This document shows, in pieces, positions 3-64,000 of a stretch of 64,000 nt of DNA. A program made the position numbers and the translations under genes. Within the stretch, counting starts at the first letter, position 1. Each line of letters starts with the position of its first letter. The stretch lies in IMG/VR virus record IMGVR_UViG_3300014205_000002, positions 144,265 to 208,264 of that record. One strand, given 5' to 3'. The notes beneath the pieces are model-generated. The model ran no database searches and had not been told where the DNA came from. It saw nothing but the letters and a program-made list of their open reading frames with translations. The stretch is from a virus (taxonomy: Duplodnaviria > Caudoviricetes).

Positions 3-1787
3 GTCATTCCTGCCACGCGTGCGGACGTTGAGCAGGCCCACACGGTATGGCAGCAGCTGACGGCGGCCGAGGCCACGGCGCGCACCCGCGCGGACGCCTG
101 GCAGGCCTTGCAGCAGCGCATCGGCCAGGAGGAGGCGCAGGGCCGGGATGGCCTGCACCGGATCGACCTCGCGATCGCCGGACGCGAGGAGAATGGGCGG
201 GCCGCCCGGCGGGACTTGGAGCGCCGGCTGGAGGAGGCGCGGACCACCGCCGCCGGTCACGCCGCCCTCGTGACCGAGCATGCGAAGGTTCAGGCCGAGC
301 TCGCGGCGGTCGAGGCGTTGCTGCCGCAGCTGGAGGCTGTGCAGCTGAACGGCATCGAGCTTCGCGCGGCGTACGACCTCCTCAAGGCCGATGGCGTGAG
401 GATCGTGGAGCGCTGCGAGGCGACGGCGGCGAAGATCACGCGGATGGACGCCGAACTCGGTCATGACGGCTGTGAGGCGACCTGTCCGCTGTGCGCGAGC
501 TCACTGAGCGGCGAGCGGCTCGCGAACCTGCGCACCCAGCTAATCCAAGAGATGCAGACCGACGCCGAAAAGCGCTGTGAGGTCGCGGAGGCACTGGCAC
601 AGGCGGAGCCGAAGCTGGAGGCGTCCCGCGCGGCCTATGTGGATTTGCGGGATCGCATCAAGGGCCAGGCCGATATCCAGCGCCGCGAGGTCGCACTGGC
701 CGGCCAGGTGAGCCAGGCGGCCGATGCCGTGAGCCTGGTCGTCTGGCTGGAGTCGGCGGCCTCGGTCCAGGAGGTGCCGGATACCGAGTTGGTCGCGCTG
801 CAATCTGAGCGTGCGGCCCTGGTGGCCGCGAACCTCGCTGTCAGCCAGGCATCGCTCGCCGAGCAGCAGGCGGTCGGACATGATGCCGCGGGCTACGCGG
901 TGTTGCGCGGGCAGCTCGCGGAGGTTGCCGAGGCTCCGGCGCGCTGGGCCGAACTCCAGCAGGCGTTGTTGGCGGTCGAGCAGGCGCAGAGCGCTATTGC
1001 CCGCCTGGAGGGCGAGCGAGAGGGGCATGTGCGCTCGGCTAGCGAGGCCGCCATCGCGGCGAACGAGGCCCGTATCCGGGCGACCAGGCACGGGGACTGC
1101 GAGCGCGAACTGGCGGCCACCCAGTCGGAGGTGATCGCCCAGCGCAACGTGGAGCGTCTGGCTCAGCAAGAGGTCGCGCGCATCGAGGCGGCGATCACCC
1201 GGGCCCAGGAGGACGCTGCGGAGCTGGTGATTCGCGAGGTGGAATGGAACCGCGCCACCGAGGATGTGCGCACGTTCAAGACGCTCGACAAGGCCTTCGG
1301 CAAGGGCGGCATCCAGGCTCATGCGATCGAGGCCGCCATTCCCGAGATCGAAGAAGAGGCCAACAGGATCCTCGGGGGCATCTGCGAAAACCAGATGCGC
1401 ATCACCCTCGTGACCCAACGCGACACCAAGGCGGGAACGGTGGTGGAGACGCTCGACGTGCGGATCGAGGACGATGCTGGCGCGCGTCCCTACGAATCCT
1501 ACTCGGGAGGCGAGGCTTTCCGTATCAACTTCGCCATCCGGCTTGCGCTCTCGCGCCTGTTGGCGCGGCGTGCGGGGGCCAGGCTGGAGACGCTGGTGAT
1601 CGACGAGGGCTTCGGTTCCCAAGACGATCAGGGGCGGGCGCGGTTGGTCGAAGCGATCAACGCCGTGTCTGGTGAATTCCGGCGTATCCTGGTCGTGACC
1701 CACATCCGCGAGTTGCGCGAGCTGTTCAACACGCAGATCGACGTCACAAAGGTGCGTGGCGTCTCCCATGTGCGCGTGGCGGGTTAG
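3..1787 (+). CDS. sbcC: SbcC/Rad50-family SMC-like ATPase, 5'-truncated by the window
   Basis: Frame is open from base 3. Long coiled coil with CPLC zinc hook, signature YSGGE, Walker B/D-loop LVIDEGFGSQD and H-loop VVTH. Confidence 0.93.
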   Translation, partial: VIPATRADVEQAHTVWQQLTAAEATARTRADAWQALQQRIGQEEAQGRDGLHRIDLAIAGREENGRAARRDLERRLEEARTTAAGHAALVTEHAKVQAELAAVEALLPQLEAVQLNGIELRAAYDLLKADGVRIVERCEATAAKITRMDAELGHDGCEATCPLCASSLSGERLANLRTQLIQEMQTDAEKRCEVAEALAQAEPKLEASRAAYVDLRDRIKGQADIQRREVALAGQVSQAADAVSLVVWLESAASVQEVPDTELVALQSERAALVAANLAVSQASLAEQQAVGHDAAGYAVLRGQLAEVAEAPARWAELQQALLAVEQAQSAIARLEGEREGHVRSASEAAIAANEARIRATRHGDCERELAATQSEVIAQRNVERLAQQEVARIEAAITRAQEDAAELVIREVEWNRATEDVRTFKTLDKAFGKGGIQAHAIEAAIPEIEEEANRILGGICENQMRITLVTQRDTKAGTVVETLDVRIEDDAGARPYESYSGGEAFRINFAIRLALSRLLARRAGARLETLVIDEGFGSQDDQGRARLVEAINAVSGEFRRILVVTHIRELRELFNTQIDVTKVRGVSHVRVAG

Positions 1788-2113: not shown

Positions 2114-2118
2114 GGAAC

Positions 2119-11278: not shown

Positions 11279-12769
11279 CTATTTGATCTCCTTGATGCGC
11301 TTCATAGCATCGGCATCGTCGATCGGACACACGCGCATCCGCTCGACGAGACGGGGCCACCGCTCGCCCACGGCCTGGGCCATAAGCGTGGCGGCGATGC
11401 GGTAGTTCAGATGCCCGCCGGGCTTCGTCCGCAACTCCACGAGGCTGTAGAGCTCACGGAGGTTGCAGGCGAGGATGGCGCGCTTGTTGTAGCACATGGG
11501 CACGCAGTACTGCGCCACGAGCCGGCCGCACTGGGCCTCGATGTTCTCATAGAGCGCCTGGACCCCGAGCATGGCGTTCGCCCAGCGCTCGGTCAGATCG
11601 TAGCGGCCAGCGGCTTCCGGTAGATGGAAGCCGAGGTAGGGGTCGAGCGGCTGCTCGACGTGTAGGCACATGCGGTGACGCTGGAGGTCTCGCCAGGTAC
11701 CGAAGTCCAGCGTGAGGTCGAAGGTGTGGGGGTAGAGTTCCAGCGCACGCGGTGCGCCGTCGCGCTCGCCACGGCTCTCAAAGATGGCGTTCCAGATCGC
11801 CGAGAATTGCGTCTCATTCAGGCGGGCAATTGCGAACAGGAGGCGATTGTGGTCGACATTGACGTAGGGGTAGAGCGCCTGAGCGACGATGCGCTGCTCC
11901 GGCGGCCAGGCCCCGAGCAGCTCGACAGCAGGGCTGTCGGCGTGCTGGACCTGGCGTTCAAACGCGATCACGGAGGCGGCGATCGCAGCCATGGTCTCGC
12001 GGTAGGCCACCGGGTAGGTCTTGGGTGCGACGTACTTCACTAGCGTCGGCAGCTGTGACTGAAAAGTGGTCTTGAGACCCAAGCCGAGCGCGCGGGCCTC
12101 AGCAAGGTCGTGGCTGAGCAGCTTACTCACGCTGTGCTCGACGGTGCGCGCGTTGGCGACGTAGCCGACCATCGTCGTCGCCGAGGCCGGCAAGATGCCG
12201 CGAGCGACATCGAGGGCCTTGGCGCGCAGGTTCGCCGCATAGAGTGCCTCGCTCATGTCGGGCGATCGCGTAGCTTCGCCAGCGAAGGCCGCCATCAGGT
12301 CGTCCAGGGTCTCCTGGTAGAGCGCAAACAGGCCCATGCAGTGGTCAATGTAGGCCTCGCGCAGGCCATGGAGCGTGTCGTCCAGTTCGTCTGGCACGAT
12401 GAAGCTCGTGGGCCCCCAGGGCTGGTAGCGGGTCGAGGCCTCAACGTAGGAGCCGAGCCGGCCGTCTTCAAGCGCCTTGGCACAGAGCATGGAAATGTTC
12501 TCGACGCAGGCGTGACCGGTCGCCAGCTCCGCGACCGAGGCGTGCCCGTACCCCAGCACGTACTTGTCGTGGAAGGTCGAGGCCTTCTCCTTGGTTAGCA
12601 GGCCCGCGTTCTGGCGGAAGGGCAGCGGCGATCGCGAGGTCTTGGCGAGCGCGACCGCGACCTCCTCGGGTGTGAGCAGGGTGTCGCGCCCAGGAACCTC
12701 ATGGAAGAGGTGATAGGCTTCCTGGGGCTTACGGGCGACCCGGTAGGCTTCATAGAGGGTCTTGGACAA
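11279..12769 (-). CDS. thyX: Flavin-dependent thymidylate synthase, long double-domain form
   Basis: GYGHASVAE, EASTRY, DVARGILPAS, FGTWRDLQRHR, ELRTKPGGH. Confidence 0.88.
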   Translation of the reverse strand: MSKTLYEAYRVARKPQEAYHLFHEVPGRDTLLTPEEVAVALAKTSRSPLPFRQNAGLLTKEKASTFHDKYVLGYGHASVAELATGHACVENISMLCAKALEDGRLGSYVEASTRYQPWGPTSFIVPDELDDTLHGLREAYIDHCMGLFALYQETLDDLMAAFAGEATRSPDMSEALYAANLRAKALDVARGILPASATTMVGYVANARTVEHSVSKLLSHDLAEARALGLGLKTTFQSQLPTLVKYVAPKTYPVAYRETMAAIAASVIAFERQVQHADSPAVELLGAWPPEQRIVAQALYPYVNVDHNRLLFAIARLNETQFSAIWNAIFESRGERDGAPRALELYPHTFDLTLDFGTWRDLQRHRMCLHVEQPLDPYLGFHLPEAAGRYDLTERWANAMLGVQALYENIEAQCGRLVAQYCVPMCYNKRAILACNLRELYSLVELRTKPGGHLNYRIAATLMAQAVGERWPRLVERMRVCPIDDADAMKRIKEIK

Positions 12770-13499
12770 CCTGTTTCTCCTTGGGGGCCTTGGGCGGCCG
12801 GGGGGACTTTGGTGGCTGTTTCATCGCCGAGTAGCGGGTCACGACCGGCACCGGCGGCCGGTAGACGACGAGCACGTTGGGGAAGGGGGCCGAGTCCGGC
12901 GCACCGCCGAAGAACAGTCGGCCCTTGATTAGGCGGACCTCGTCGGCCTTGCCGTCGACCCAATCGTGAAACCAGCAGGAATCGGTGCGGGCGGGCACGA
13001 GGCAAACTACCGTGCAGCCTTGCAGGCTCTCCTCGTAGGCCTTGCGCATCCAGTCGGCGATGCCGGGCACATAGAACTCGTTGTGGTGGTCGCTCTCGCC
13101 GAAGGCGGCCTCGTAGGCGGCCATGAGGCCAGGTACTTGCGCCAGTAGCTCATAGGCCTTCTTGACGCCCGGCAGGTTGGTGATGCGCATGGCGAGCCGA
13201 CCCAGGCACTTCTTCTTCTTGCAGTTCTTCACGCAGGGCTGCTCGGCGTCCCCATACGGCGGATTCATATAAAAGACCTTCGCGGGGCGTCCGCACAGCA
13301 GCTTGATCTTGTGCCAGATCTTCATCAAGCCGTTGGTTTCGCGGGTGAAGTAGACGGGGCATTTGTGGTTCAGGTCGTCGGCGCAGACGTCGACCTCGAA
13401 GCCGAACTCCTCATGGAGCGCGCCATAGAACGCGTCGGGCGTCGACCAGTTATCGGTGCTGGACGAGAACATCGCCGCCTTGTCGGTGGCGTGCGCCAT
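12750..13499 (-). CDS. Phage DNA N6-adenine methyltransferase (lambdoid/T1 Dam-type family)
   Basis: NWSTP, VDVCA, MNPPYG, VCLVPARTD, IKGRLFF, APFP. Carries a ~60-aa Cys-rich insertion. Confidence 0.9.
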   Translation of the reverse strand: MAHATDKAAMFSSSTDNWSTPDAFYGALHEEFGFEVDVCADDLNHKCPVYFTRETNGLMKIWHKIKLLCGRPAKVFYMNPPYGDAEQPCVKNCKKKKCLGRLAMRITNLPGVKKAYELLAQVPGLMAAYEAAFGESDHHNEFYVPGIADWMRKAYEESLQGCTVVCLVPARTDSCWFHDWVDGKADEVRLIKGRLFFGGAPDSAPFPNVLVVYRPPVPVVTRYSAMKQPPKSPRPPKAPKEKQVVQDPL

Positions 13500-18223: not shown

Positions 18224-18859
18224 TCAGCGCACGCCAGAGGTGCCCCAGCCACCCACCCGGTTGGACGGCGGCAGTGCGTCGACGGGCGTCCAGTCGCCCT
18301 CGACGTAGGCCTCGACACAGATCTGGGCGATGCGATCACCGCCGGTGACCCGGAACGGCCTGTCGGAGTGGTTGTAGAGCACCACGCCGATCTGCTCGCG
18401 GTAGTTGTTGTCGATCAATCCCGCACCGACCTCGATGCCCTCGTTTGAGGAGAGGCCCGAGCGACTCTCGACCACGATCTTGTAGCCGGGTGGCAGCGCG
18501 ACCTTGATGCCGATGCCGAAAGTCTTGCGGCCGCCTGCGGGAATGACGATACTGTCGGCGTTGCCCATGCGCAGAAACTCATAGCCGTCGTCGCCATTGC
18601 GGTACTTGAGGCTGTAGGCGAAGACGTCCGAGGCCACGTCGCCCGGCTGCATGGTCTTGGGCGCAGTGGCCCCTTTCATGACCACCGTGGGAATGCTCAG
18701 CTTGGGGGCGAGGCCCGCGAGTGCGACGATGGCGCGAGCCAGCTCCGGCGTGATGGCGATCGCGTCGGTGTTCAGGCTGCTGGAACCAGCCATGACCGGC
18801 AGGCGCTGGAGCGGCAACACGAGCTCGCCCTGGGCGTTGGTGTAGTGACTAGCGGGCAT
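18224..18859 (-). CDS. dut: Trimeric dUTPase
   Basis: ESRSGLS, GLIDNNYR, GDRIAQ, RVGGWGTSG. Confidence 0.93.
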   Translation of the reverse strand: MPASHYTNAQGELVLPLQRLPVMAGSSSLNTDAIAITPELARAIVALAGLAPKLSIPTVVMKGATAPKTMQPGDVASDVFAYSLKYRNGDDGYEFLRMGNADSIVIPAGGRKTFGIGIKVALPPGYKIVVESRSGLSSNEGIEVGAGLIDNNYREQIGVVLYNHSDRPFRVTGGDRIAQICVEAYVEGDWTPVDALPPSNRVGGWGTSGVR

Positions 18860-20732
18860 GGGGCAGCTCCTTGGTTACAGCGAGTCCTGCGCGCTTGACG
18901 AAGGGAAGGAACTCGGGGACGGGGTGGAGGATGCGCTCGCCGAGCGCGATCCTGATCTGGTTACCCAGATGCCAGCCGAATAGCGGGGGTACCGCATTGC
19001 CGACCTGCCTGTATTGGGCCGAGCGGGGGCCCTGGAAGACCCAGTCGTCGGGGAAACTCTGGAGCCTCGCGGCTTCGCGCACGGTCAGCCGGCGCAGCCT
19101 GCGTGGCGGCGGAGCTGGTACGATGTGGGTGTGGTTGGCCCCGCCCGAGGCGACGATCGTCTGCGCGGGCTGGTCCATGTCCTGGACGCGACCACGGCCG
19201 TTGAAGATGGTCTCGGCGGGGTTTCCGGGCCGGGCCATCAACTCCTTCGCGCGCTCCGAAGCGGGCACGATGGCGATCGCGTTGTCCTCGTGGTTGGGCA
19301 CGGGCAGCAGGTTGGCATTGCCGCAGTCCTGCTCGGCGATGATGGTCTTCGCTGGTGCGTCCCAGCTCATGGCCGGATTACTCAGCTTACCCGCGAGGGC
19401 GCTGGGCCTAGGCGGCGAGGCCGGCTCGTGGTTGGGGACGTCACCCATGATGAAGTCGACGTTACCCGAGGTGTTGATCGTGCGGCCTGGCGCATCGGGA
19501 TCGAGCAGCTTCATGCCCTGACCGACGTGCCCTGCGAGGATGGCCTCTTCATGCGTGCCCGTGTAGACGCTGGCCTCGTGGTTGGCGGGGATGGCCTGCT
19601 GGTGGTGGGCTCGTACGGTGTTGGCAGGCTTGTCCCAGGCGTGCAGGCCGTTGGGGCCGGCCCCGCGATCGGCGGCGTGCTCGATGTGCCTGATCTCACC
19701 GGGCGTGAGCGGGTGATTCACGTGGTTCTCGACCGGTAGCAGGTTCACGTTCCCCGAGCGCTGGTGGGCGATGATGCACGACGCGGGCTCGTCGAGCGCC
19801 ATCGGAGCCTTCATCGACCAGTCGCTCTCGCCGGTGAGCGCGGAGGGTACCGGCGGGGGCGCGGCCTCATGGTTCTCGACGGGGATCAGGTTGTTGGTGC
19901 CGGACTCCTGCTTGGCGATGATCGTACGCGCGACCTGGTCGAGTTCCATCGGTGGGTGTTTCTGAGCCCAGGAGCTGTCGGCGATCGCCGCACATGGTGG
20001 CGGCGGAGGAGCTGGCTCATGGTTGGCGGCGGGGGCGAACGCGGGACCGTAAGGGGCCGGCAGATCGCTGATGGCCTGACGGACCGTGACCCATCTGCGC
20101 AGCGTACCGAAGAAGCCCGGAGTGGGAGTGTCCGCATGCGTCGGCTTCGGCCAGGGGAAGAAGCTCTCGTCGCGTCGGCCGAAGAAGATCACGCGGATGC
20201 GCTTCTGGGGAACGCCGTAGTCGGCCATGTTGATCATGCGGTACTCGACGCTGTAGCCGATGTCCCTGAAAGCCTGGAGGATCACGTCCTTGACCAGAGT
20301 CTGGTCGTCGTCGGTCTTCATCGTGAGTAGCCCCTTGACGTTCTCCATGACGAAACCCCACGGCTTGGCCTCGTCGACGACCCGTACAAACTGCCAGAAC
20401 AGCTTGTTGCGCGGATCGTCCGCCTCGCGCTTGCCAGCGGTAGAGAACCCCTGGCAAGGTGGCCCGCCCACCACGAGGCGGGCCTGACCGGAAACCAGTC
20501 CTGCCGCCTCAAGGATGACCTCGGTGGGAATGGCGCAGATATCGCCCTTGAGCACGGGGATCCCCTGGCGGTTGTGGCGCAGCGTGTCGACGGCGTGCCC
20601 GTCGAGTTCGACCGCAACGCGCACGTCGAACCCCGCGGACTCCAGCCCGATATCCAGGCCCCCGGCCCCCGAGAACAGTGAGATGATCGGCATCGGCCGG
20701 TTGGTCGGACCGTGCATGGGGACGATGGTCAC
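18849..20732 (-). CDS. dcm: DNA cytosine-5 methyltransferase with an expanded, repetitive variable region
   Basis: FSGAGG, GGPPCQGFS, MENVKGL, YGVPQKRIR, RRLTVREAARLQSFPD, YRQVGNAVPP. Confidence 0.95.
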   Translation of the reverse strand: MTIVPMHGPTNRPMPIISLFSGAGGLDIGLESAGFDVRVAVELDGHAVDTLRHNRQGIPVLKGDICAIPTEVILEAAGLVSGQARLVVGGPPCQGFSTAGKREADDPRNKLFWQFVRVVDEAKPWGFVMENVKGLLTMKTDDDQTLVKDVILQAFRDIGYSVEYRMINMADYGVPQKRIRVIFFGRRDESFFPWPKPTHADTPTPGFFGTLRRWVTVRQAISDLPAPYGPAFAPAANHEPAPPPPPCAAIADSSWAQKHPPMELDQVARTIIAKQESGTNNLIPVENHEAAPPPVPSALTGESDWSMKAPMALDEPASCIIAHQRSGNVNLLPVENHVNHPLTPGEIRHIEHAADRGAGPNGLHAWDKPANTVRAHHQQAIPANHEASVYTGTHEEAILAGHVGQGMKLLDPDAPGRTINTSGNVDFIMGDVPNHEPASPPRPSALAGKLSNPAMSWDAPAKTIIAEQDCGNANLLPVPNHEDNAIAIVPASERAKELMARPGNPAETIFNGRGRVQDMDQPAQTIVASGGANHTHIVPAPPPRRLRRLTVREAARLQSFPDDWVFQGPRSAQYRQVGNAVPPLFGWHLGNQIRIALGERILHPVPEFLPFVKRAGLAVTKELPHAR

Positions 20733-22507: not shown

Positions 22508-25021
22508 TTACTTGCAGCGCGAGTAGCCGCAGGTCGGGTTGATGCACTTGGCACAGCCCTCGCCGTGGTCGAGACGGCTGCCGCAGTCGGGGCATTCGGG
22601 GGTTTCGCCCTGATCGAGGGCGTGCAGGTTGGCGGCGTGCTGGGCGTTCGGTGCTGGCGGCAGCGGAAGCGGCAGCGCGAGGCCCAGGGCGAAGGTCACG
22701 GCCTCGCGGGGCGCGAGATCGATCGGACCACCGGACCAGGTGAGCGGCGCACGCCGGATCGCCTTGCCGATCGCATCTGGCACCGAGAGCACCTGGTTGT
22801 CGCCGAACCCCGAGGGGTCGGCCCCGCGGATGCCCACCAGGGCATGCGAAATGTCCTCGACGGGCACGCGGTGCTGGAGTGCCAGGCTGATCAGCTTGCC
22901 GATGGCCTCGCCGAACGAGTTCAGTGTGCCGCCGGAGCGCCCGATGTTCGTCACGACCTCGCGCAAGCCCTCCTCGTCGTAGTTGAGGGTGGTGTAGAGC
23001 TTGCCCTCGCCGACCTGCTTGGTCATGGTGAAGCCCGTCAGGACCTCGGGCCTGATCCGTTTGCCCGCCCGCATCTCTGCCATCAGGCTATCGAGACGCG
23101 CCTGGAGTTCGGCGAGTTGGGGCGGCGGGGCGATCGCCGCGGGGGCGGTCACCTGGGTGAGCGAGAGCGGCTGTGCCTCGCGGGAGTTGTTGCGGTACAC
23201 GGTGATGCCCTTGCAGCCCGTCTCGTAGGCCAGGTGGTAGGCTTCCTCGACGTCCGCCTCGGTCGCGCTCTCAGGGAAGTTGATCGTCTTGGAGATGGCC
23301 GAGTCGTTGAAGCGCTGGAAGGCGGCCTGGGTGTGAACGTGCTGGGCCGGGCTGATGTCGTGGGTGGTGACGAAGATGCGCGCGAGGTTGAAGAGGATCT
23401 TCATCTCGCCCGTCGTGAAGAACAGGGCCCTATCAAAGGGGTTGTCCGCCACCAACTCGTTGAGCGAGCCGTGGTAGTGAGTGTCCAGCGCTTCGAAGAC
23501 ATAGGCGATGCGTGCGTCGTCGAAGCCCTTGGCCCGGAGCGCGTCTGCGAACACGCGATCGGCGTCGAACATGTGGGTATCGGCCTGGAAGCGCTTGAAG
23601 GCCAGCGCGAAGACGGGCTCGCAGCCGCCCGAGGTATCGGCGATCATGGAGAGGGTGCCCGTGGGCGCGCAGGTCGTGGTGTTGGAGTTGCGCAGGCCGT
23701 GGATGTCGACTTCGTCGGCGAGCCAGTCGTAGCGGCAATCCTTGTGCTTGCCGGGGCGCGCGTGACGCTCCATCAGCATCTTGCGGAAGATGGCGTTGGA
23801 CTCGGCTTCGTGGCCGATGCGCGCGGGGAAGACGCCACGGGCCTTGCCTAACTCCAGGCTCTTGACCTTCGATTCGTAGTCGATGAAGCTCATGACCTCT
23901 TCGGCGAAGGCCAGGCCCTCGGGGCTACCGTAGGGGATCTGGAGCTTGAACAGCGCCCGGGCGAAGCCCATTACGCCGAGGCCCGTCTTGCGGGTGGCGT
24001 TCGAGACCTCGGCGATCTCAGGGATCGGGTACTTGTTCGCGCTGATCACGTTGTCGAGCATGTGCGCCGAGGTGTGAACGACGCCGCGCAGACGCTCCCA
24101 GTCGAAGAATGTGCAGTCGGGGCCGCCCTGCGGCATGTCCATGACGAACTGCTCCAGGTTGATCGAGCCGAGATTGCAGGATTCATAGGGGATTAGGGGC
24201 TGTTCGCCACAAGGATTGGTGGCCTCATACTTGCCCAACCAGGGCACGGGGCAATACTCGTTCATGCGGTCGATGAACACGATGCCCGGCTCACCCGTGG
24301 TCCAGGCGCGCTTGACGATCTCCTTGAAGACGGGCCGCGCGCGGATTCTGTCGGTATCCTGGCCTGTGCGCGGGTTGATCAGGTCGTAGTTGTTATCATG
24401 AACGACGGCGTCCATAAACCTGTCGGTGATCGCCACGGAGATGTTGAAGTTCGTGAGTTTGGAGAGGTCTTCCTTGTGGCTGATGAAGCTCAGGATGTCC
24501 GGATGATTGACGCGGAGGATGCCCATGTTCGCGCCACGGCGCATGCCGCCCTGCTTGATGCTCTCGGTGGCCGCGTTGAACACGTCCATGAACGAGATCG
24601 GACCCGAGCTCTCGCCCTTGGTGGACTGGACCATATCCTTGGCCGGCCGCAGGCGCGAGAAGGCGAAGCCGGTGCCGCCGCCGGTCTGGTGGATCAGGGC
24701 GGCGTTCTTGATGGTTTCAAAGATGCCCGCGAGGTCGTCGGGTACAGGCAGGACGAAGCAGGCCGAGAGCTGGCCCGTGCGGGTGCCGGCGTTCGCCAGC
24801 GTGGGTGAGTTCGGCAGGAAGTCGCCGTCCCAGAGGAGTTGGAAGAACGCCTCCTCGACGAGCGCCGTCTGCTCGGGCGTCTGGCCATGTTGCAGTTCGA
24901 CGGCTGCCAGTGTGCGCGCGACGCGCCGCATCATCTCGATGGGCAGTTCGATCAGGTTGCCTTGGGCATCCTTTTCAAGGTAGCGCTTCTCCAGTACGGT
25001 GATGCCGTTCTTGCTCAGCAT
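22508..25021 (-). CDS. nrdJ: Class II (adenosylcobalamin-dependent) ribonucleotide reductase
   Basis: PNSPTL, GQLSACFVLP, GGGTG, RRGANMG, TNPCGEQ, CNLGSIN, APTGTLS, SKTIN, KGITVYR. C-terminal TSCPD-like domain and CPDC..C..C. Confidence 0.95.
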   Translation of the reverse strand: MLSKNGITVLEKRYLEKDAQGNLIELPIEMMRRVARTLAAVELQHGQTPEQTALVEEAFFQLLWDGDFLPNSPTLANAGTRTGQLSACFVLPVPDDLAGIFETIKNAALIHQTGGGTGFAFSRLRPAKDMVQSTKGESSGPISFMDVFNAATESIKQGGMRRGANMGILRVNHPDILSFISHKEDLSKLTNFNISVAITDRFMDAVVHDNNYDLINPRTGQDTDRIRARPVFKEIVKRAWTTGEPGIVFIDRMNEYCPVPWLGKYEATNPCGEQPLIPYESCNLGSINLEQFVMDMPQGGPDCTFFDWERLRGVVHTSAHMLDNVISANKYPIPEIAEVSNATRKTGLGVMGFARALFKLQIPYGSPEGLAFAEEVMSFIDYESKVKSLELGKARGVFPARIGHEAESNAIFRKMLMERHARPGKHKDCRYDWLADEVDIHGLRNSNTTTCAPTGTLSMIADTSGGCEPVFALAFKRFQADTHMFDADRVFADALRAKGFDDARIAYVFEALDTHYHGSLNELVADNPFDRALFFTTGEMKILFNLARIFVTTHDISPAQHVHTQAAFQRFNDSAISKTINFPESATEADVEEAYHLAYETGCKGITVYRNNSREAQPLSLTQVTAPAAIAPPPQLAELQARLDSLMAEMRAGKRIRPEVLTGFTMTKQVGEGKLYTTLNYDEEGLREVVTNIGRSGGTLNSFGEAIGKLISLALQHRVPVEDISHALVGIRGADPSGFGDNQVLSVPDAIGKAIRRAPLTWSGGPIDLAPREAVTFALGLALPLPLPPAPNAQHAANLHALDQGETPECPDCGSRLDHGEGCAKCINPTCGYSRCK

Positions 25022-25983
25022 GCGTTGCCTTTCTGTATCACGGCATCAGCGGCCGCGTATGCGTCGTCGAGGGTCTCCCAGCGCGTGCGTGTCTGGAAGC
25101 CAGCCGGCTCTCTCGACGGGTTGTGTTCGCGCTCCCACTGTTCATCGTGGTTCAGTACGTAGCCGTCGCGGAGCACAACCCAGCCTTTGGCCTCGTGTTG
25201 GCCCCTTAAGGTTATGATATAGCCGTCGCCGAGGTCGATCGAATGGCGCTCTTTGAGCGGGTCTACCGGCTTTTCGCTGCTGATGCCCAGGCCGCGCCAC
25301 TCGTCGGCGATCGGCAACTTGAGCAACTCCATTAGCCTGCTCGCGTCGTCGGGTTGAATGTCCACGCCAGCGGGGCTGAACAGGCGATCGAGCACCTTGA
25401 TCAAGTGGCCGATGTAGTCGTCCGTTCGCGCGTAGTGGTCGATCAGCTGGATGCCGGGCATCGCTGAGACGCAGTCGATCCAGCTGGTGGTCTGCTCTAG
25501 GGTGGCGAGCAGATCGCCGGGATCGTTGCCGCGGAAGCTCTCCTCGGCCTTGGCGATCGCCGCACGCAGGCGCATGATCAGCGCACGTTGGGCGGCGGCC
25601 ACGGTGTTCACGAGATTGCGCTTCTCCAGCGTTGCCCAGCCGACGTTGGCCTCCGTCAGGTAGCCGCGGCTCAACTCCGTCTGGCGCACGACGGCCTCCC
25701 AGCTGGGTACGCCAGCGGGCACGAGCCCGTAGATCGAGAAGGTGCTGACGGCATTCACGAGGCCCGCGAACTGGGTGCGCAACTCCGCGACCTCCTCGGC
25801 CACGGCCCTGCCAGGGTGACGTTCATCCTGGGTTAGCGACATGCGGGGCGTGCCGCCGAGGGCGACCACCTGGGCGGCGAGCAGGTCGACCAGGCCGTGG
25901 GCGCTCATGAGGTCGAGCTCAAGTATGTCGACATAGGCTGACTGCTCAATGCCGCCTTGCAGCAGGATGTCGTTGTCGGTCAT
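25015..25983 (-). CDS. Hypothetical protein
   Basis: 322 aa, coupled to neighbours. Confidence 0.7.
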   Translation of the reverse strand: MTDNDILLQGGIEQSAYVDILELDLMSAHGLVDLLAAQVVALGGTPRMSLTQDERHPGRAVAEEVAELRTQFAGLVNAVSTFSIYGLVPAGVPSWEAVVRQTELSRGYLTEANVGWATLEKRNLVNTVAAAQRALIMRLRAAIAKAEESFRGNDPGDLLATLEQTTSWIDCVSAMPGIQLIDHYARTDDYIGHLIKVLDRLFSPAGVDIQPDDASRLMELLKLPIADEWRGLGISSEKPVDPLKERHSIDLGDGYIITLRGQHEAKGWVVLRDGYVLNHDEQWEREHNPSREPAGFQTRTRWETLDDAYAAADAVIQKGNAC

Positions 25984-27134
25984 GCCGGCACCTGGGCGAA
26001 ATGGGCCTCGATCGCGTCCGGTAGCATCAATGGGTCAAGCACACCCAGATACTGCATGATCAGCGCGGTGGACGAGCTGAGGGCGATCGCCTGCTCCAGC
26101 TGGCGTTGATTGACGAAGCCCTGGCTCCAGGCGACCATGGCCCGGGCGCTGGCCTGCGGCCCGGTGTAGGGATTGGCCTCCTGGGTCAGGCCTGCCACGG
26201 CGGCCTCCGCACCCTGGCGGTGAGCCTGTTCAACGCCCACGACCTGCCGGAGATCCTCGCTGCTCGTGAACAGGCGCTCGCGCACCTTGGCGTAGAGCAC
26301 CCGGTAGCGCGAGAGGCAGCGCATGATTCGCTCGAAGTTGGTGCCGGCCTGTTCAGTCTCGGGCTCTCCCCGCAGCGCGTCGGCGATCAGGGCGTCGCGA
26401 TACGACAAGGCATCCTTCGCCATGCCGGCCTCGGACACGGCGGCGGCCTCGCGGCTGCGGGCGATTGCAAGTTCACCGGTACTCGCGAGGGCCTCAGCGC
26501 GCACCAGCTCCGTGCTGGCCTTGAGCGTCTCGATCGCCTTGGTTAGCTGTTCGCTCTCGGCCAGTAGCTCGCAGACGCGCTGCTCGGCAGACTCCGCGCG
26601 CTCCTCTTGGGTGCGGATCTGGTCGATATACTGCGCCTCAATGGGCGTGGCTCCGCCGGTGCCGTAGGCCAGGAAGTTGTCGAGGAAAGCGTTGTAGCCA
26701 TCGCAGCTGCGGCCATTGAGTGCTTCTTCGACCATTTCCTGGCGGTCAAGTGGGAGGAGTGCTCCGTTGTAGAGGCCGTTGAGCAGGCATTCATAGTGGA
26801 GCTTGCGCAGCACGGGCTTGAGGATGGCGCTGCCCGATAGCTCGGCGCGCAGGAGCTGGTTCTCCTTGGCGAGTTGGCCGTAGCTGAGTTCGTAGTTGCG
26901 TATCGTGTCGAGCGCGCCAGCGAGGTAGCGACCAGCCTCTTCGGAACCGGCCGCGAGCTGCTTAATCAGCGCCGTGAGGTCCTGGCGGGTGAGGTGTTTG
27001 AGGTTCTCTCCCTGGTTCGTGTGGCGCTGCACCAACTCGGGGATGCCGGCGATCGCCGCCTGGACCACCATGAGCGGGCTGGTGAAGTGGCCGTTGGTCA
27101 CAACGACGGGGATGTCGGGGGTAGATTCACTCAT
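25980..27134 (-). CDS. Coiled-coil protein with a C-terminal RMF-like motif
   Basis: AHRQGAEAAVAG...NPY...AWSQGF. Confidence 0.6.
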   Translation of the reverse strand: MSESTPDIPVVVTNGHFTSPLMVVQAAIAGIPELVQRHTNQGENLKHLTRQDLTALIKQLAAGSEEAGRYLAGALDTIRNYELSYGQLAKENQLLRAELSGSAILKPVLRKLHYECLLNGLYNGALLPLDRQEMVEEALNGRSCDGYNAFLDNFLAYGTGGATPIEAQYIDQIRTQEERAESAEQRVCELLAESEQLTKAIETLKASTELVRAEALASTGELAIARSREAAAVSEAGMAKDALSYRDALIADALRGEPETEQAGTNFERIMRCLSRYRVLYAKVRERLFTSSEDLRQVVGVEQAHRQGAEAAVAGLTQEANPYTGPQASARAMVAWSQGFVNQRQLEQAIALSSSTALIMQYLGVLDPLMLPDAIEAHFAQVPA

Positions 27135-27997
27135 GAGGCTTGTAGCTCCTTGCGTTGCTTGCGCAGCATGGACTGGTAGGTGAGCACGGAACTGACGTCC
27201 GCAAAGCCCAGCTGCTGCTTGATGTCGTGGGGGTCCTGATTGGCTTCGAGGAGTTCGATGATGCGGCTCGCGCGCATCACCTGGGGGGTCAACTGGGGCG
27301 TCTGTGCGCCCGCGGCGTTGCGTACGATCAGCCAGACGACATGCCGGCTGATCATGCCGCCCTTCATACCGTAGAACATGAGGTCCTTGCGCGAGGCCGA
27401 CTTCGGGACGGCGCGCACCTGGGCGTAGGCTACATAGGCCTCTTGGGCGATCGCGTCCAGCACCAGGAGGTCGTCGCGCTCCGCACTGACGAACAGCAAG
27501 GAGCCGGACCGAAAGAGGCTCTCGCCGTCGCCGGCGGCGTTGAAGCGCATGGCCTGAATTTCACCGGGCCGTATGCCCAGCCGGAACAACTCCATGATGA
27601 AGCGCCGCGAGGTGCCGAGGTGGTAGCGCGCGCAGGCCTCGGTGATCGCATCAGGGGGGTAGAAGGCGCTGTCCTTGCCGTCTGGACTCGGCCACTCCAC
27701 GTCATGCAGCAGCGCCGTGTCCAGTTGGCCCCGCTCGATGTGGTGGCGCAGGAAGCCGCGCAGGGCGGCCCCCTTGCGTGTGGCGGTGTTCGGCCTGGCC
27801 CGGCGGCGGGTGTGGGTCATGTAAGCCGCCAGAATCTGGCTGGAGAGGTCGCCGAGATCCCGTGCGTCCGGGCAGTGCTCTGCGAGGTACTGAGTGAAGT
27901 CGGCGAGGTCCCCGCTGTAGGCGCTCGTGGTCGCGACCGCCTTGTTCTGCTCGATCAGCTCGTTGACGTAGGCCTGGGTGGACTGAACGATGTTCAC
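27131..27997 (-). CDS. XerC/D-like tyrosine recombinase with a degenerate catalytic pocket
   Basis: TTSAYSGDLADFTQYL, ALRGFLRH, GIRPGE, LTPQVMRAS, IKQQLGFAD, LTY. GTG start overlaps the upstream stop. Confidence 0.8.
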   Translation of the reverse strand: MNIVQSTQAYVNELIEQNKAVATTSAYSGDLADFTQYLAEHCPDARDLGDLSSQILAAYMTHTRRRARPNTATRKGAALRGFLRHHIERGQLDTALLHDVEWPSPDGKDSAFYPPDAITEACARYHLGTSRRFIMELFRLGIRPGEIQAMRFNAAGDGESLFRSGSLLFVSAERDDLLVLDAIAQEAYVAYAQVRAVPKSASRKDLMFYGMKGGMISRHVVWLIVRNAAGAQTPQLTPQVMRASRIIELLEANQDPHDIKQQLGFADVSSVLTYQSMLRKQRKELQAS

Positions 27998-28586: not shown

Positions 28587-28609
28587 CTTACGAAGATTAG
28601 TCGGGCCGC

Positions 28610-35081: not shown

Positions 35082-35106
35082 CGGGTACCTCTGCGGCGGG
35101 TGCCGC

Positions 35107-35847: not shown

Positions 35848-35852
35848 GGTGG

Positions 35853-36754: not shown

Positions 36755-36768
36755 ATGGTGCTCCTCGT

Positions 36769-36800
36769 TGACAGAATGTGATCGACTCTATGGCGATCGC
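36769..36800 (-). promoter_or_regulatory. Bipartite motif GCGATCGC-N14-CATTCTGTCA, copy 2
   Basis: Intergenic, directly before the SD of the 36754 gene. Confidence 0.65.
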
Positions 36801-36802
36801 TT

Positions 36803-37162
36803 TCAGGGGGTGATGGGGTTTCCGTTGGCGTCCCGCAGGAAGAAGTAGAGCTTGCTCTTATCGGTGTCGCTGATCGACACGCAGATGGCACCCAGGCCTT
36901 GGAGTGGGCCCTCGTCGAAGATGCCGAACAGGCCGTTGAGGACACCGAGCAGGCCCACCACATAGCAGTGCTCGTCCTGCTGGGTAGCAACATTGACGAC
37001 GGTGCTGCTCTTTGCGACCTGGACTGTTGGGTGATCCGCCAACTCCAGGGTATTGACGCGGGTGCGGATCTCGACCAGGTTGTGGATCGCTCCTGGATCC
37101 AGGCTGGCGAGCTCATTCAAGAAGCGCACTAACTCGGCGAGCGTGACGGAGGGCTTGATCAT
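36803..37162 (-). CDS. Hypothetical phage protein
   Basis: 119 aa. LADHPTVQV..VGLLGVLNGLFG. Confidence 0.7.
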   Translation of the reverse strand: MIKPSVTLAELVRFLNELASLDPGAIHNLVEIRTRVNTLELADHPTVQVAKSSTVVNVATQQDEHCYVVGLLGVLNGLFGIFDEGPLQGLGAICVSISDTDKSKLYFFLRDANGNPITP

Positions 37163-37165
37163 GGC

Positions 37166-38305
37166 CTAGTAGCCTTCGTGTTCGTGGATGGTGTAGTACT
37201 TCGTCGCGAGCATGGCCGGACCAGGCTCAAGGACCACGTCTTCATCGGGGTCGTCCTTGAGGATTGAGTCCCGCTCAAGCTCGGCTGAGGCCTTGCTTGG
37301 GCAGGTCATTGGCGAACTCTGCCGAGGGCCCACTTTGTAGGTTTGGAGCGTGGTGTTGCCGCATTCGCTGTGGAGCGCGCCGCCCGCGCCGACGCCCGTC
37401 CGAACGACCCAGCAGCCGGTGCGAATTGGCACCATTAGATTGCAGTGGAGGCAGCGGATTCCCTCCAAGCGCCCATGGCCGAAGACCGAGTAGCCAACAC
37501 CCTCGTCGGTCTCGGCCGCACGACTGAGCGCCTTGCTATGAAGGTTGGCAGCAGCGGCATCGAGCCCGTACTGCTCGTGTGGCACGGGTGCCTCGACGCT
37601 GTATGAGTCGCCCTTGGCATAGTCGATACCGATCACGCTCTCGGCGTTGAGGGCGATCGCGTCGATCTTCTCGGCACCAGGCAGGACGAAGCAGGCTGAC
37701 AGCTGTCCAGTGGGCTTGCGCCTGGGCAGGAGGCGATCGTCCACGCCGTAGAGGGTGAGCAATGCGAGGTCGCCGCCGGCGTGGTAGGTGACCTCGACCT
37801 GGGGGCCGCCCTCGACCTCGTGCTCGGCGTCGAGTATCTCGATGCCCTGGGTCTTCATGAGGGTGACCAGACGCTTGGCCTGTCGAACCATTCCCGCAGG
37901 GTCGATGCCGATGTGAATGAAGCTCTCACTGGAACGCGCGCCCGCTTCAATCTCAACGGGGACGAAGCCAGCTCCGGTGAGCAGCTGCCAAGTTCTGAGG
38001 ATATTGGCAGGCACTTCGTCGTGGGTGATGGGCTCCGCGAGAACGATGGCGCAGTCTTCCTCGTCGGTGCCCTCGAAGTCGAGCGCGTAGCACTCGTCGG
38101 CGATCGCGATGACCGCCTCCGCGCGCGAGTTGATCTTGCTGATGCGATCGTTGGTGATGTGGCAGTAGACCTTGCCCACTTCCTGAATGGCCGTGTGGTA
38201 GTCGAACAGCTCGCGCATCACCTTGTCGGGGTCGAGTCGGCCCGTCGCCGGGTCTTCCACGAGGGGCTTCCAGAAGCTGGCGTAATTCTTCTCGTAGTCT
38301 TGCAA
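37166..38305 (-). CDS. Mosaic hypothetical protein containing an RNR active-site peptide
   Basis: TTG start, SD AAGGAG. Internal TGQLSACFVLP. Confidence 0.7.
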   Translation of the reverse strand: MQDYEKNYASFWKPLVEDPATGRLDPDKVMRELFDYHTAIQEVGKVYCHITNDRISKINSRAEAVIAIADECYALDFEGTDEEDCAIVLAEPITHDEVPANILRTWQLLTGAGFVPVEIEAGARSSESFIHIGIDPAGMVRQAKRLVTLMKTQGIEILDAEHEVEGGPQVEVTYHAGGDLALLTLYGVDDRLLPRRKPTGQLSACFVLPGAEKIDAIALNAESVIGIDYAKGDSYSVEAPVPHEQYGLDAAAANLHSKALSRAAETDEGVGYSVFGHGRLEGIRCLHCNLMVPIRTGCWVVRTGVGAGGALHSECGNTTLQTYKVGPRQSSPMTCPSKASAELERDSILKDDPDEDVVLEPGPAMLATKYYTIHEHEGY

Positions 38306-38330
38306 TCCGGGCTCCTTTGGCTCTTGCTGC

Positions 38331-38361
38331 TGACAGAATGTGGCAGGTGCGAGGCGATCGC
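38331..38361 (-). promoter_or_regulatory. Bipartite motif GCGATCGC-N13-CATTCTGTCA, copy 3
   Basis: Intergenic, upstream of the 38305 start. Confidence 0.65.

Positions 38362-64000: not shown

What the first reader, a model, noticed from the sequence alone, without database searches (positions are those of the whole stretch)
171..63774. Strong enrichment of the cyanobacterial HIP1 palindrome GCGATCGC
Seen: I counted about 50 copies by eye (e.g. 171, 2810, 3580, 3832, 8390, 10701, 15541, 19981, 29371, 34051, 35131, 36793, 38354, 50403, 60021, 63767), densest at about 25-38 kb. Base composition alone predicts about 2-3, and my rough allowance for Ala-Ile-Ala codons still gives under 10. Established: HIP1 is characteristic of many cyanobacterial genomes and contains GATC/CGATCG methylation targets. 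Inference: the phage has long replicated in a HIP1-type host.
Basis: partly seen in the sequence, partly recalled or inferred. Interest (0 to 1): 0.7.

Follow-up and report, generated by a model that had tools for sequence, protein, structure and literature searches.

The report
Host-type HIP1 palindrome load in phage
A 208-kb uncultured phage is peppered with the 'cyanobacterial' palindrome GCGATCGC (more exactly GGCGATCGCC) to the same degree as high-GC genomes of Sericytochromatia, the non-photosynthetic cousins of cyanobacteria. This points to them as its host and shows the palindrome is not confined to photosynthetic cyanobacteria.

Summary
There are 52 exact GCGATCGC in the window and 120 in the complete 208,264-bp phage, against 2.2 expected from composition, 5.3 from dinucleotide shuffles and 17.8±3.3 from synonymous-codon shuffles.

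The octamer alone is weak evidence at 64% GC. Caulobacter phage phiCbK shows the same 3-fold excess over its codon null, and the count follows from the 7-mers.

The extended palindrome GGCGATCGCC does discriminate:
- Phage: 206 per Mb (328 in the window).
- Five non-cyanobacterial high-GC replicons: 0-43 per Mb.

The excess occurs in all three reading frames and between genes.

Host link: the phage ribonucleotide reductase is sister (100/100 support) to those of Candidatus Sericytochromatia. 19 of 47 genomes of that class carry GGCGATCGCC at 100-424 per Mb, with matching density, extension ratio, rank and fold over the codon null.

Sites are not positionally conserved in a related phage and are spread over phage-specific genes. 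The load therefore looks acquired in place during long residence in such a host.

No host was proven, and the methyltransferase specificities are unknown.

The same scan's notes also hold a first-reader host inference for this contig.

The parts
171..63774 (.). 52 copies of GCGATCGC (21 of them extended to GGCGATCGCC). 32 lie in frame GCG-ATC-GCN (Ala-Ile-Ala), 13 in frame xGC-GAT-CGC, 3 in frame xxG-CGA-TCG-C and 4 between genes.
   Evidence: exact counts, nulls and frame distribution.
25553..38361 (-). HIP1 hot region: 22 sites (1705 per Mb) in a block of 28 small minus-strand genes, only 3 of which have a homologue in the related phage G001.
   Evidence: Poisson P = 1e-5, scan P = 0.0016, 22 against 8.2 under the codon null.
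35107..35138 (-). Bipartite intergenic motif GCGATCGCC-N13/14-CATTCTGTCA, 26 nt before a gene start. The HIP1 copy at 35131 is its upstream half.
36769..36800 (-). Second copy of the bipartite motif (HIP1 at 36793), 15 nt before a gene start.
38331..38361 (-). Third copy of the bipartite motif (HIP1 at 38354), 26 nt before a gene start.
12750..13499 (-). Phage-type DNA N6-adenine methyltransferase (Pfam Dam, PF05869), the only one in the contig. Its specificity is not determined; GATC is a candidate.
18849..20732 (-). 627-aa C-5 cytosine DNA methyltransferase (PF00145), the only one in the contig. A long variable region with repeated N-H-containing modules lies between the catalytic halves. 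Its specificity is not determined; CGATCG is a candidate.
22508..25021 (-). Class II ribonucleotide reductase with a TSCPD domain. It is the host-link gene: 62-64% protein identity and up to 78% DNA identity to Sericytochromatia genomes.
1..1787 (+). 3' part of an SbcC/Rad50-like ATPase gene (it starts 834 nt before the window). It has 69-73% DNA identity to Sericytochromatia genomes G005, G008 and G009.
18224..18859 (-). dUTPase; its conserved part has 69-78% DNA identity to about 20 Sericytochromatia genomes.
32971..33222 (-). Acyl-carrier-protein-like gene (PP-binding) with 68-79% DNA identity to many Sericytochromatia genomes.

Best explanation
The window belongs to a complete 208-kb myovirus whose DNA carries a genuine, DNA-level over-representation of the nested palindrome GATC < CGATCG < GCGATCGC < GGCGATCGCC. 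The load is a copy of the host's genome signature. High-GC members of the class Sericytochromatia (non-photosynthetic Cyanobacteriota) carry the same extended HIP1 at the same density. The phage, replicating in such a host over a long time, has been driven toward it site by site by whatever makes and keeps HIP sites in the host. That could be a methylation-linked repair or mutation bias, as in Elhai's model, or weak selection on number. The process turns tolerant positions (Ala-x-Ala, Asp-Arg, Arg-Ser and non-coding DNA) into HIP sites. Sites turn over and are not inherited at fixed places. The phage's own Dam-type and C5 methyltransferases plausibly keep these GATC/CGATCG-rich sites methylated like host DNA. 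A few copies have been co-opted as the upstream half of a phage promoter/operator-like motif. Shown here: the enrichment, its all-frame character, the matching host-class signature, the gene links and the lack of positional conservation. Inferred: the identity of the host, the generating mechanism and the methyltransferase targets.
For: Enrichment: 52 sites against 17.8±3.3 in the window and 120 against 46.5±5.5 in the contig under synonymous-codon shuffles. All contexts are enriched: frame 0, 82 against 35; frame 1, 26 against 5.3; frame 2, 6 against 0.4; intergenic, 6 against 0.36. The Ala-Ile-Ala tripeptide is 2.6x over-represented while AAI and IAA are not, and 82 of 102 AIA use GCG-ATC-GCN against 33 expected. 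GAT|CGC is 3.35x and GAC|CGC 0.27x of expectation. GCGATCGC is the top palindromic octamer and exceeds every 1-nt variant. Specificity: GGCGATCGCC is at 206 per Mb (window 328), against 43, 22, 28, 27 and 0 per Mb in pSymB, the Ralstonia megaplasmid, Rhodococcus pRHL1, the Methylorubrum megaplasmid and Thermus pTT27. It occurs once each in the phiCbK and RcapMu samples. Host class: the RNR has 62-64% identity to five Sericytochromatia MAGs, the best among pattern-sharing hits in 185,579 species genomes. It is sister to them at 100/100 support and 69-78% identical in DNA to 28 genomes, G002-G029 only. SbcC-like, dUTPase, SLT and ACP genes also match that subgroup at the DNA level. Of 47 class genomes, 19 have the decamer at 100-424 per Mb, with the reversed control at 0-14 copies. 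Sampled HIP-rich genomes (GC 65.5-70%) show 336-953 HIP1 per Mb, O/E 9-25, 1.8-3.6x over the codon null, the decamer at 2.4-7.9x, and HIP1 as the first or second palindromic octamer. The phage shows 576 per Mb, 16.6, 2.7x, 4.9x and first rank. In-place acquisition: sites occur in phage-specific genes (506 per Mb in genes shared with relative G001, 657 per Mb in the rest). Only 2 of 31 aligned in-frame sites are HIP1 in G001, whose residues there are often AAA, AVA or AIE. The load varies among relatives: decamer 206, 147 and 37 per Mb in G000, G001 and G049. Precedent: Planktothrix phage PaV-LD has 483 per Mb and Nostoc phage A1 has 571 per Mb.
Against: No direct host evidence was found. No spacer-like match turned up in window 1-40 kb, and no terminase relative or prophage occurs in any of the 47 genomes. 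The host link rests mainly on one well-resolved gene with a long phage branch (0.75), plus conserved housekeeping genes whose DNA similarity partly reflects shared GC and codon usage. The fold over a codon-aware null is modest (2.7x) and equals that of a Caulobacter phage for the octamer. The tetranucleotide signature does not discriminate: G005 r = 0.91, phiCbK r = 0.89. Some cyanophages of HIP1-rich hosts carry almost no HIP1 (A-4L 0, Ma-LMM01 6 per Mb, MaAM05 22 per Mb), so mirroring is not obligatory. The control set for the decamer is small: five replicons and two phages. The generating mechanism is untested.
Confidence: 0.65

Rival explanations
1. This is a generic high-GC coding artefact. 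In a 64% GC genome the preferred codons GCG/GCC (Ala), ATC (Ile), GAT-CGC and GGC make GATC-centred GC-rich words frequent, so the palindrome has no host-specific meaning.
For: The maximal-order Markov expectation equals the observed count (50.6 against 52; 111.8 against 120). 68% of sites are Ala-Ile-Ala codons. The most frequent octamer is GGCGATCG, not HIP1. phiCbK shows 3.0x for HIP1, 1.9x for CGATCG and 1.4x for GATC over its codon null. GATC and CGATCG excesses of 1.2-1.9x recur in RcapMu and in unrelated high-GC viral contigs.
Against: The excess persists after protein-preserving codon shuffles and is largest where codons contribute least: frame 2 at 16x and intergenic at 16x. The decamer is 5-10 times denser than in five non-cyanobacterial high-GC replicons. 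HIP1 ranks 9th-25th among palindromic octamers in those controls and first here. The AIA tripeptide itself is inflated 2.6x.
Confidence: 0.12
2. The signal is phage-autonomous. The phage's own Dam-type and multi-module C5 methyltransferases, with some repair activity, create or maintain the palindromes. Alternatively, the sites serve the phage itself (promoters, recombination or packaging), independent of the host's signature.
For: Both methyltransferases are encoded in the window. The relative G001 carries the same unusual C5 enzyme (44% identity) and also has a HIP load. Three intergenic copies lie in a conserved bipartite motif just upstream of genes. The HIP-rich host-class genomes mostly lack a close homologue of the phage C5 enzyme.
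Against: Sites are not positionally conserved between relatives (2 of 31). They are scattered inside coding sequence in all frames. Only 3 of 120 belong to the motif, which is absent from the rest of the contig. The same decamer signature exists genome-wide in cellular genomes of the class that supplied the phage RNR.
Confidence: 0.12
3. This is a classical cyanophage: its host is an oxygenic, photosynthetic HIP1-rich cyanobacterium, as the name 'cyanobacterial HIP1' suggests.
For: HIP1 is characteristic of such genomes (PMC4390886, PMC5861425). The best RNR hit among cultured phages is Microcystis phage MaAM05 at 48% identity. Cultured cyanophages PaV-LD and Nostoc A1 have similar densities.
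Against: The phage has 64% GC and its relatives 66-68%. By Elhai 2015, Group C1 picocyanobacteria (other than S. elongatus) and Gloeobacter lack high-frequency HIP1; from my own knowledge these are the cyanobacteria of that GC. The closest cellular RNRs are Sericytochromatia (62-64%) and then Gastranaerophilales (51%), and no Cyanobacteriia genome was among the hits. The source is a landfill metagenome. The order-0 O/E of 17-24 is below even 'weak HIP1' cyanobacteria.
Confidence: 0.08

Closest known systems
HIP1 (Highly Iterated Palindrome 1, GCGATCGC) of cyanobacterial genomes, especially the extended form GGCGATCGCC of Synechocystis PCC 6803, Synechococcus PCC 7002 and Geitlerinema PCC 7407 (Robinson 1995; Elhai 2015, PMC4390886; Xu 2018, PMC5861425)
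   Same: The word and the extension are the same: the 10-mer/8-mer ratio is 0.36-0.40 here, against 27-88% in those genomes. The density lies in the 300-2700 per Mb band. It is the top palindromic octamer. One-base variants concentrate at the outer positions. It is present in all frames and in non-coding DNA. It is scarce in the presumably most highly expressed genes. GATC- and cytosine-methyltransferase genes are present.
   Different: It sits in a phage and not in a cell. The over-representation is far lower (order-0 O/E 17-24 against 55-228; 2.7-5x against 15-300x over codon-aware expectation). No positional conservation with a relative was detected, although that relative is very diverged. 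The methyltransferases are of other families (PF05869 instead of DmtA's class) or of unknown specificity.
Planktothrix phage PaV-LD (NC_016564) and Nostoc phage A1 (KU234533), cultured cyanophages
   Same: These are phage genomes with a host-like HIP1 load: 483 and 571 per Mb, against 576 per Mb here.
   Different: They are low-GC phages of oxygenic filamentous cyanobacteria, so their O/E is much higher. I found no paper in the searchable library describing their HIP1 content. Other cyanophages (A-4L, Ma-LMM01, MaAM05) lack it.
Caulobacter phage phiCbK (NC_019405), a 216-kb high-GC phage of an alphaproteobacterium
   Same: Its GC is similar (65%). The fold excess of GATC (1.4x), CGATCG (1.9x) and GCGATCGC (3.0x) over its own codon null is the same.
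   Different: Its octamer density is half (260 per Mb). It shows no decamer extension (1 copy in 50 kb). HIP1 is not its top palindrome. This marks the generic high-GC background against which the phage's signal must be judged.
Host-mimicking oligonucleotide signatures of phages (genome amelioration, the basis of k-mer host prediction)
   Same: The phage's word usage matches a candidate host group: tetranucleotide r = 0.91 with G005, and the same iterated palindrome.
   Different: Here a single 8-10-nt palindrome carries most of the discriminating signal, whereas tetranucleotides do not discriminate.

Membership tests
HIP1-type genome (Elhai 2015; Xu 2018) | GCGATCGC is the most frequent or most over-represented palindromic octamer, and overlapping words are co-enriched. 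| tested here: met
   It ranks first among palindromic octamers (120 against 76 for the next). The top five octamers all overlap it.
HIP1-type genome (Elhai 2015; Xu 2018) | Density of 300-2700 sites per Mb. | tested here: met
   576 per Mb in the contig and 812 per Mb in the window.
HIP1-type genome (Elhai 2015; Xu 2018) | Observed/expected from nucleotide frequencies of 55-228 (24-42 in 'weak HIP1' genomes). | tested here: not met
   O/E is 16.6 for the contig and 23.5 for the window, at or just below the weak band.
HIP1-type genome (Elhai 2015; Xu 2018) | 15- to 300-fold excess over a reading-frame-aware expectation. | tested here: not met
   2.7x over the synonymous shuffle and 5x over the codon shuffle; for the decamer, 4.9x and 9.3x. 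My nulls are not identical to Xu's estimator.
HIP1-type genome (Elhai 2015; Xu 2018) | Enrichment in every reading frame and in non-coding DNA, i.e. not a codon by-product. | tested here: met
   2.3x, 4.9x and 16x in frames 0, 1 and 2, and 6 against 0.36 in intergenic DNA.
HIP1-type genome (Elhai 2015; Xu 2018) | One-base deviations are biased to the first and last positions (CGATCG core). | tested here: met
   Variants at positions 1 and 8 total 188, against 83 at positions 2 and 7 and 54 at positions 3 and 6. CGATCG has 408 copies.
HIP1-type genome (Elhai 2015; Xu 2018) | Sites conserved at orthologous positions between related genomes. | tested here: inconclusive
   2 of 31 sites are conserved with G001, against an 11.4% background tripeptide conservation. 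At 44% amino-acid identity the pair is far more diverged than Xu's genome pairs.
HIP1-type genome (Elhai 2015; Xu 2018) | GATC- and CGATCG-specific methyltransferases present. | not testable with these tools
   One PF05869 Dam-type and one PF00145 C5 enzyme are encoded, but their target sequences cannot be read from sequence here. PF02086 Dam is present in 45 of 47 host-class genomes.
Cyanophage of an oxygenic cyanobacterium | Closest cellular homologues of host-derived genes lie in Cyanobacteriia, with a GC compatible with a HIP1-bearing host. | tested here: not met
   The closest RNRs are Sericytochromatia and then Gastranaerophilales. The phage's 64% GC exceeds that of HIP1-bearing cyanobacteria (my own knowledge; by PMC4390886, the picocyanobacteria and Gloeobacter lack high-frequency HIP1).
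Phage of Sericytochromatia (proposed) | Direct host link (spacer, prophage, proximity ligation or culture). | tested here: not met
   No spacer-like hit was found for window 1-40 kb and no terminase relative occurs in the 47 genomes. The rest of the contig was not searched.
Phage of Sericytochromatia (proposed) | Indirect links: gene phylogeny and a matching genome signature. | tested here: met
   The RNR is sister to the class at 100/100 support. DNA-level matches are restricted to G002-G029. The HIP decamer density, ratio and rank match.

The most novel reading that the evidence does not exclude
GGCGATCGCC/HIP1 is not a hallmark of oxygenic cyanobacteria only. It is highly iterated in roughly half of the non-photosynthetic class Sericytochromatia. 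This jumbo myovirus and its relative G001 would then be the first recognised viruses of that class. They would be shaped by the same HIP-generating process, and would carry their own adenine and multi-module cytosine methyltransferases to reproduce the host's HIP methylation.
Probability: 0.4. Interest if true: 0.7.

Novelty: new member of a known kind. Interest (0 to 1): 0.55.

Why it matters
HIP1 has been studied for 30 years without an agreed origin or function, and always as a trait of photosynthetic cyanobacteria.

- **A natural comparison set.** The same extended palindrome occurs at 100-424 per Mb in 19 of 47 Sericytochromatia genomes and is almost absent from 23 others. This within-class contrast can be used to find what co-varies with HIP, such as methyltransferases, repair genes or DNA-uptake machinery. 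It also shows that HIP is independent of photosynthesis.
- **A clue to mechanism.** Phage-specific genes have acquired the load without positional conservation. That argues for a continuing, genome-wide generating process acting on any DNA replicating in such a cell.
- **A host lead.** The signature gives a concrete host hypothesis for an uncultured jumbo-phage lineage from a class for which I found no described phage.
- **A caution on method.** At high GC the octamer alone is not diagnostic; the decamer and codon-aware nulls are needed.

Tried and rejected
- **Phage collection searches.** Megablast of 9 kb against the phage collection found no match. tblastn of the 1482-aa protein found none.
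- **Single-protein scans of IMG/VR** found no relatives. Alignment-based scans were needed.
- **Gene caller on G001.** My caller failed there, giving only 3 reciprocal hits. I replaced it with tblastn, which gave 101 shared proteins. The 2.5x figure for G001 is therefore approximate.
- **MoxR cassette.** My first guess at its coordinates was wrong. The VWA-metallopeptidase gene was located, but the claimed cyanobacterial link was not tested because the single genome scan went to the RNR.
- **Terminase in 47 Sericytochromatia genomes:** nothing found.
- **Spacer-like matches:** none for window 1-40 kb. Window 40-64 kb and contig 1-144 kb were not searched.
- **Tetranucleotide correlations** do not discriminate host candidates from phiCbK.
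- **PF02086 Dam** is present in HIP-rich and HIP-poor genomes alike, so it does not discriminate.
- **Phage C5 enzyme against the class:** only catalytic-domain matches, mostly in HIP-poor genomes, so it says nothing about specificity.
- **PDB and NCBIfam** give only generic C5-MTase matches.
- **Sequencing runs:** only the probable source run was returned, so there is no independent habitat evidence.
- **Bipartite HIP1 motif:** not found outside the window.
- **Literature:** no paper links HIP1 with Sericytochromatia. None of the passages I read in the papers holding both GCGATCGC and 'phage' describe HIP1 loads in phage genomes.
Full report
**1. What the window is.**
The window is the last 64 kb of a single 208,264-bp contig. 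IMG/VR classes the contig as complete, with direct terminal repeats. GC is 63.9% throughout. My codon-model gene caller finds 266 genes covering 94.6% of the contig.

The contig encodes a large terminase, a major head protein and a tail sheath, so it is a myovirus. The window holds the following genes:
- a class II ribonucleotide reductase (RNR), ThyX and a dUTPase;
- an SbcC-like ATPase and an SSB;
- an acyl carrier protein, an SLT transglycosylase and an integrase-family protein;
- several very large proteins with no family;
- two DNA methyltransferases.

No tRNA lies in the window. The only sequencing run that holds the DNA is a landfill metagenome, probably its source.

**2.
The contig has 120.

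| Null model | Window expected | Contig expected |
|---|---|---|
| Base composition (order 0) | 2.2 | 7.2 |
| Dinucleotide shuffles | 5.3±2.0 | not computed |
| Order-5 Markov | 30.7 | 73.6 |
| Maximal-order Markov | 50.6 | 111.8 |
| Codon shuffle within genes | 9.3±2.3 | 24.0±4.4 |
| Synonymous-codon shuffle (every protein kept) | 17.8±3.3 | 46.5±5.5 |
| **Observed** | **52** | **120** |

The maximal-order Markov result shows that the octamer follows from its sub-words. The signal is nested. Over the synonymous-codon null, GATC is 1.5x, CGATCG 2.1x, GCGATCGC 2.7x (window 3.0x) and GGCGATCGCC 4.9x (window 8.4x).

**3. It is a DNA-level signal.**
Of the 120 sites, 82 read GCG-ATC-GCN (Ala-Ile-Ala), 26 read xGC-GAT-CGC, 6 read xxG-CGA-TCG-C and 6 lie between genes. 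Each class exceeds its null, and the ratio rises as the codon background falls:

| Context | Observed | Expected | Ratio |
|---|---|---|---|
| Frame 0 | 82 | 35.0 | 2.3x |
| Frame 1 | 26 | 5.3 | 4.9x |
| Frame 2 | 6 | 0.4 | 16x |
| Intergenic | 6 | 0.36 | 16x |

The pressure reaches into the proteins:
- Ala-Ile-Ala is 2.6x over-represented (102 against 39), whereas AAI is 1.5x and IAA 1.1x.
- 82 of the 102 AIA use GCG-ATC, against 33 expected from codon usage.
- Asp-Arg is written GAT-CGC 128 times against 38 expected, and GAC-CGC 28 times against 102 expected.

GCGATCGC is the most frequent palindromic octamer. It stands 2.6-fold or more above each of its one-base variants, and those variants concentrate at the outer positions.

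**4. Calibration: the octamer alone is not diagnostic at this GC.**
- *Published benchmarks.* Elhai 2015 reports 300-2700 HIP1 per Mb and order-0 O/E of 55-228 in HIP1-rich cyanobacteria, and 24-42 in 'weak' ones (PMC4390886). Xu 2018 reports a 15-300x excess over a frame-aware expectation (PMC5861425). The phage has 576 per Mb (window 812) but an O/E of only 16.6-23.5.
- *Phage controls.* A 50-kb sample of Caulobacter phage phiCbK (65% GC) gives 260 per Mb, O/E 7.1 and the same 3.0x over its own codon null. Its CGATCG is 1.9x and its GATC 1.4x. Rhodobacter phage RcapMu and unrelated high-GC viral contigs show GATC and CGATCG excesses of 1.3-1.8x.
- *Bacterial controls.* Samples of four non-cyanobacterial high-GC replicons give 75-150 HIP1 per Mb, O/E 2-4, 0.8-1.7x over the null, and HIP1 ranked 9th-25th among palindromic octamers.

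So part of the octamer excess is a generic property of GATC-tolerant high-GC DNA.

**5. The decamer discriminates.**

| Sequence | GGCGATCGCC per Mb |
|---|---|
| This phage (contig; window) | 206; 328 |
| S. meliloti pSymB | 43 |
| Ralstonia megaplasmid | 22 |
| Rhodococcus pRHL1 | 28 |
| Methylorubrum megaplasmid | 27 |
| Thermus pTT27 | 0 |

The decamer occurs once each in the phiCbK and RcapMu samples. The 10-mer/8-mer ratio of 0.36-0.40 is like that of Geitlerinema PCC 7407 or Oscillatoria acuminata in Elhai's table.

**6. Candidate host.**
I scanned one genome for each of 185,579 prokaryote species with the phage RNR. The best relatives are five 'Candidatus Sericytochromatia' MAGs at 62-64% identity over the full length. 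Next come Gastranaerophilales at 51%, and then others at 46% or less. One 59% hit to a Clostridiales MAG covers only the first 270 residues.

In a maximum-likelihood tree the phage enzyme is sister to the five Sericytochromatia enzymes (100/100 support). That clade is sister to Gastranaerophilales (96/95). The phage branch is long, at 0.75.

At the DNA level:
- The RNR matches 28 genomes of the class (G002-G029) at 69-78% identity and none of G030-G048.
- The SbcC-like gene matches G005, G008 and G009 at 69-73%.
- The dUTPase, SLT and ACP genes match many genomes of the same subgroup.

No terminase relative exists in any of the 47 genomes. The RNR contigs are therefore not mis-binned copies of this phage.

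**7. The host class carries the same palindrome.**
The five RNR-bearing MAGs hold GCGATCGC at 104, 420, 178, 542 and 207 per Mb. Across the 47 species genomes of the class, GGCGATCGCC density falls into three groups:
- 19 genomes at 100-424 per Mb;
- 5 genomes at 26-88 per Mb;
- 23 genomes at 11 per Mb or less.

The reversed-word control gives 0-14 copies per genome.

| Measure | HIP-rich Sericytochromatia (G005, G008, G009, G011, G013, G015, G020) | This phage |
|---|---|---|
| GC | 65.5-70% | 63.9% |
| HIP1 per Mb | 336-953 | 576 |
| O/E (order 0) | 8.6-24.5 | 16.6 |
| HIP1 over codon null | 1.8-3.6x | 2.7x |
| Decamer over codon null | 2.4-7.9x | 4.9x |
| 10-mer/8-mer ratio | 0.33-0.69 | 0.36 |
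| Rank among palindromic octamers | first or second | first |

G003 (57% GC) shows O/E 24.6 and the decamer at 8.7x.

The next-best RNR lineages have 0-11 decamers per Mb: two Gastranaerophilales, a Planctomycetales MAG and an Omnitrophota MAG. I found no paper mentioning both Sericytochromatia and HIP1.

**8. How the load arose.**
G001 is a complete 203,733-bp phage of 67.6% GC. It is a true relative: 101 of the 266 proteins match it in synteny at 33-62% identity. It has 66 HIP1 sites and 30 decamers. A third relative, the 80-kb fragment G049 (terminase 49% identical, GC 66%), has only 37 decamers per Mb. The load therefore varies within the phage lineage.

Of 31 in-frame HIP1 sites lying in aligned regions, only 2 are HIP1 in G001. 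That is 6.5%, against a background tripeptide conservation of 11.4%. The G001 residues at the other positions are often AAA, AVA, AIE or LIA.

Sites occur in phage-specific genes:
- The density is 506 per Mb in genes shared with G001 and 657 per Mb in the rest.
- The RNA polymerase has 2 sites and the 1482-aa protein has 4.
- The head protein and terminase have none.

The window's hot zone (25.5-38.4 kb; 22 sites; scan P = 0.0016) is a block of 28 small lineage-specific genes. Together this argues against import of host genes and against inherited functional sites. It argues for continuing in-place creation and turnover, fastest where proteins are least constrained.

I did not test whether the driver is a methylation-linked repair bias, as in Elhai's model, or selection on site number.

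**9. Methyltransferases and co-opted sites.**
The contig has exactly one Dam-type enzyme (PF05869) and one C5 enzyme (PF00145). The C5 enzyme is 627 aa, with repeated N-H-containing modules between its catalytic halves. Full-length relatives occur only on large phage-like contigs. The specificities of both enzymes are unknown.

A PF02086 Dam is present in 45 of 47 Sericytochromatia genomes, HIP-rich or not. This parallels DmtA in cyanobacteria.

Three intergenic HIP1 copies (35131, 36793, 38354) form the upstream half of the motif GCGATCGCC-N13/14-CATTCTGTCA, 15-26 nt before minus-strand gene starts. The motif is absent from the rest of the contig. It is probably a local promoter or operator that recruited a HIP site.

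**10. Precedent.**

| Cultured cyanophage | GCGATCGC per Mb |
|---|---|
| Nostoc phage A1 | 571 |
| Planktothrix phage PaV-LD | 483 |
| Microcystis phage MaAM05 | 22 |
| Microcystis phage Ma-LMM01 | 6 |
| Anabaena phage A-4L | 0 |

Mirroring of host HIP1 therefore exists but is not universal. I found no paper describing it.

**11. Verdict.**
The best-matching host group is the high-GC, HIP-rich part of Sericytochromatia, not a photosynthetic cyanobacterium.

The host is inferred from one strong gene phylogeny, several DNA-level matches and the signature match.

Noticed in passing
G002-G048 (class survey; no window coordinates): Sericytochromatia split sharply. G002-G029 share the phage-like RNR, and most of them carry GGCGATCGCC at 26-424 per Mb. 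G030-G048 have neither. Close homologues of C5 methyltransferases were found mostly in the HIP-poor genomes.
   Followed up: partly
window 19120-20024 (inside the C5 methyltransferase, 18849-20732, minus strand): The variable region holds repeated modules, each starting with N-H. They are conserved in the three full-length relatives (alignment A1), which suggests a multispecific enzyme. Only two or three such proteins exist in the 5.8-billion-protein set, all on large phage-like contigs.
   Followed up: partly
L082 (Myxococcus phage Mx8, NC_003085): GATC is almost absent (3 against 106 expected under the codon null) and CGATCG is absent. This extreme avoidance contrasts with the GATC excess in the other high-GC phages.
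   Followed up: no
W06-W10 (cultured cyanophages): The HIP1 load is bimodal among cyanophages of HIP1-rich hosts: PaV-LD 483 and Nostoc A1 571 per Mb, against A-4L 0, Ma-LMM01 6 and MaAM05 22 per Mb.
   Followed up: partly
window 32952-38361, minus strand: ATCTGTCA-type element: ATTCTGTCA occurs five times in the contig. Four copies lie 1-26 nt upstream of gene starts in this block, and three of those are preceded by GCGATCGCC at a 13-14 nt spacing.
   Followed up: partly
window 42720-43724, plus strand: A second, shorter RNR-related gene (334 aa; phrog_6397, 'ribonucleotide reductase large subunit') lies 18 kb from the full class II RNR.
   Followed up: no
window 11279-12769, minus strand: ThyX of 496 aa, about twice the usual length, with two matched stretches to the Thy1 domain.
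   Followed up: no
window 27131-27997, minus strand: A tyrosine-recombinase (XerC/integrase-family) gene in a 208-kb phage with direct terminal repeats. No prophage copy was found in the candidate host class.
   Followed up: no
window 32971-33222, minus strand: An acyl-carrier-protein gene (PP-binding) in the phage, with DNA-level similarity to many Sericytochromatia genomes.
   Followed up: partly
contig-wide (+ strand counts): The half-extended words are unequal on the + strand (GGCGATCG 144, CGATCGCC 81). G precedes the octamer in 92 of 120 sites, whereas C follows it in 51 of 120. This is presumably a gene-orientation and codon-position effect, which I did not resolve.
   Followed up: no
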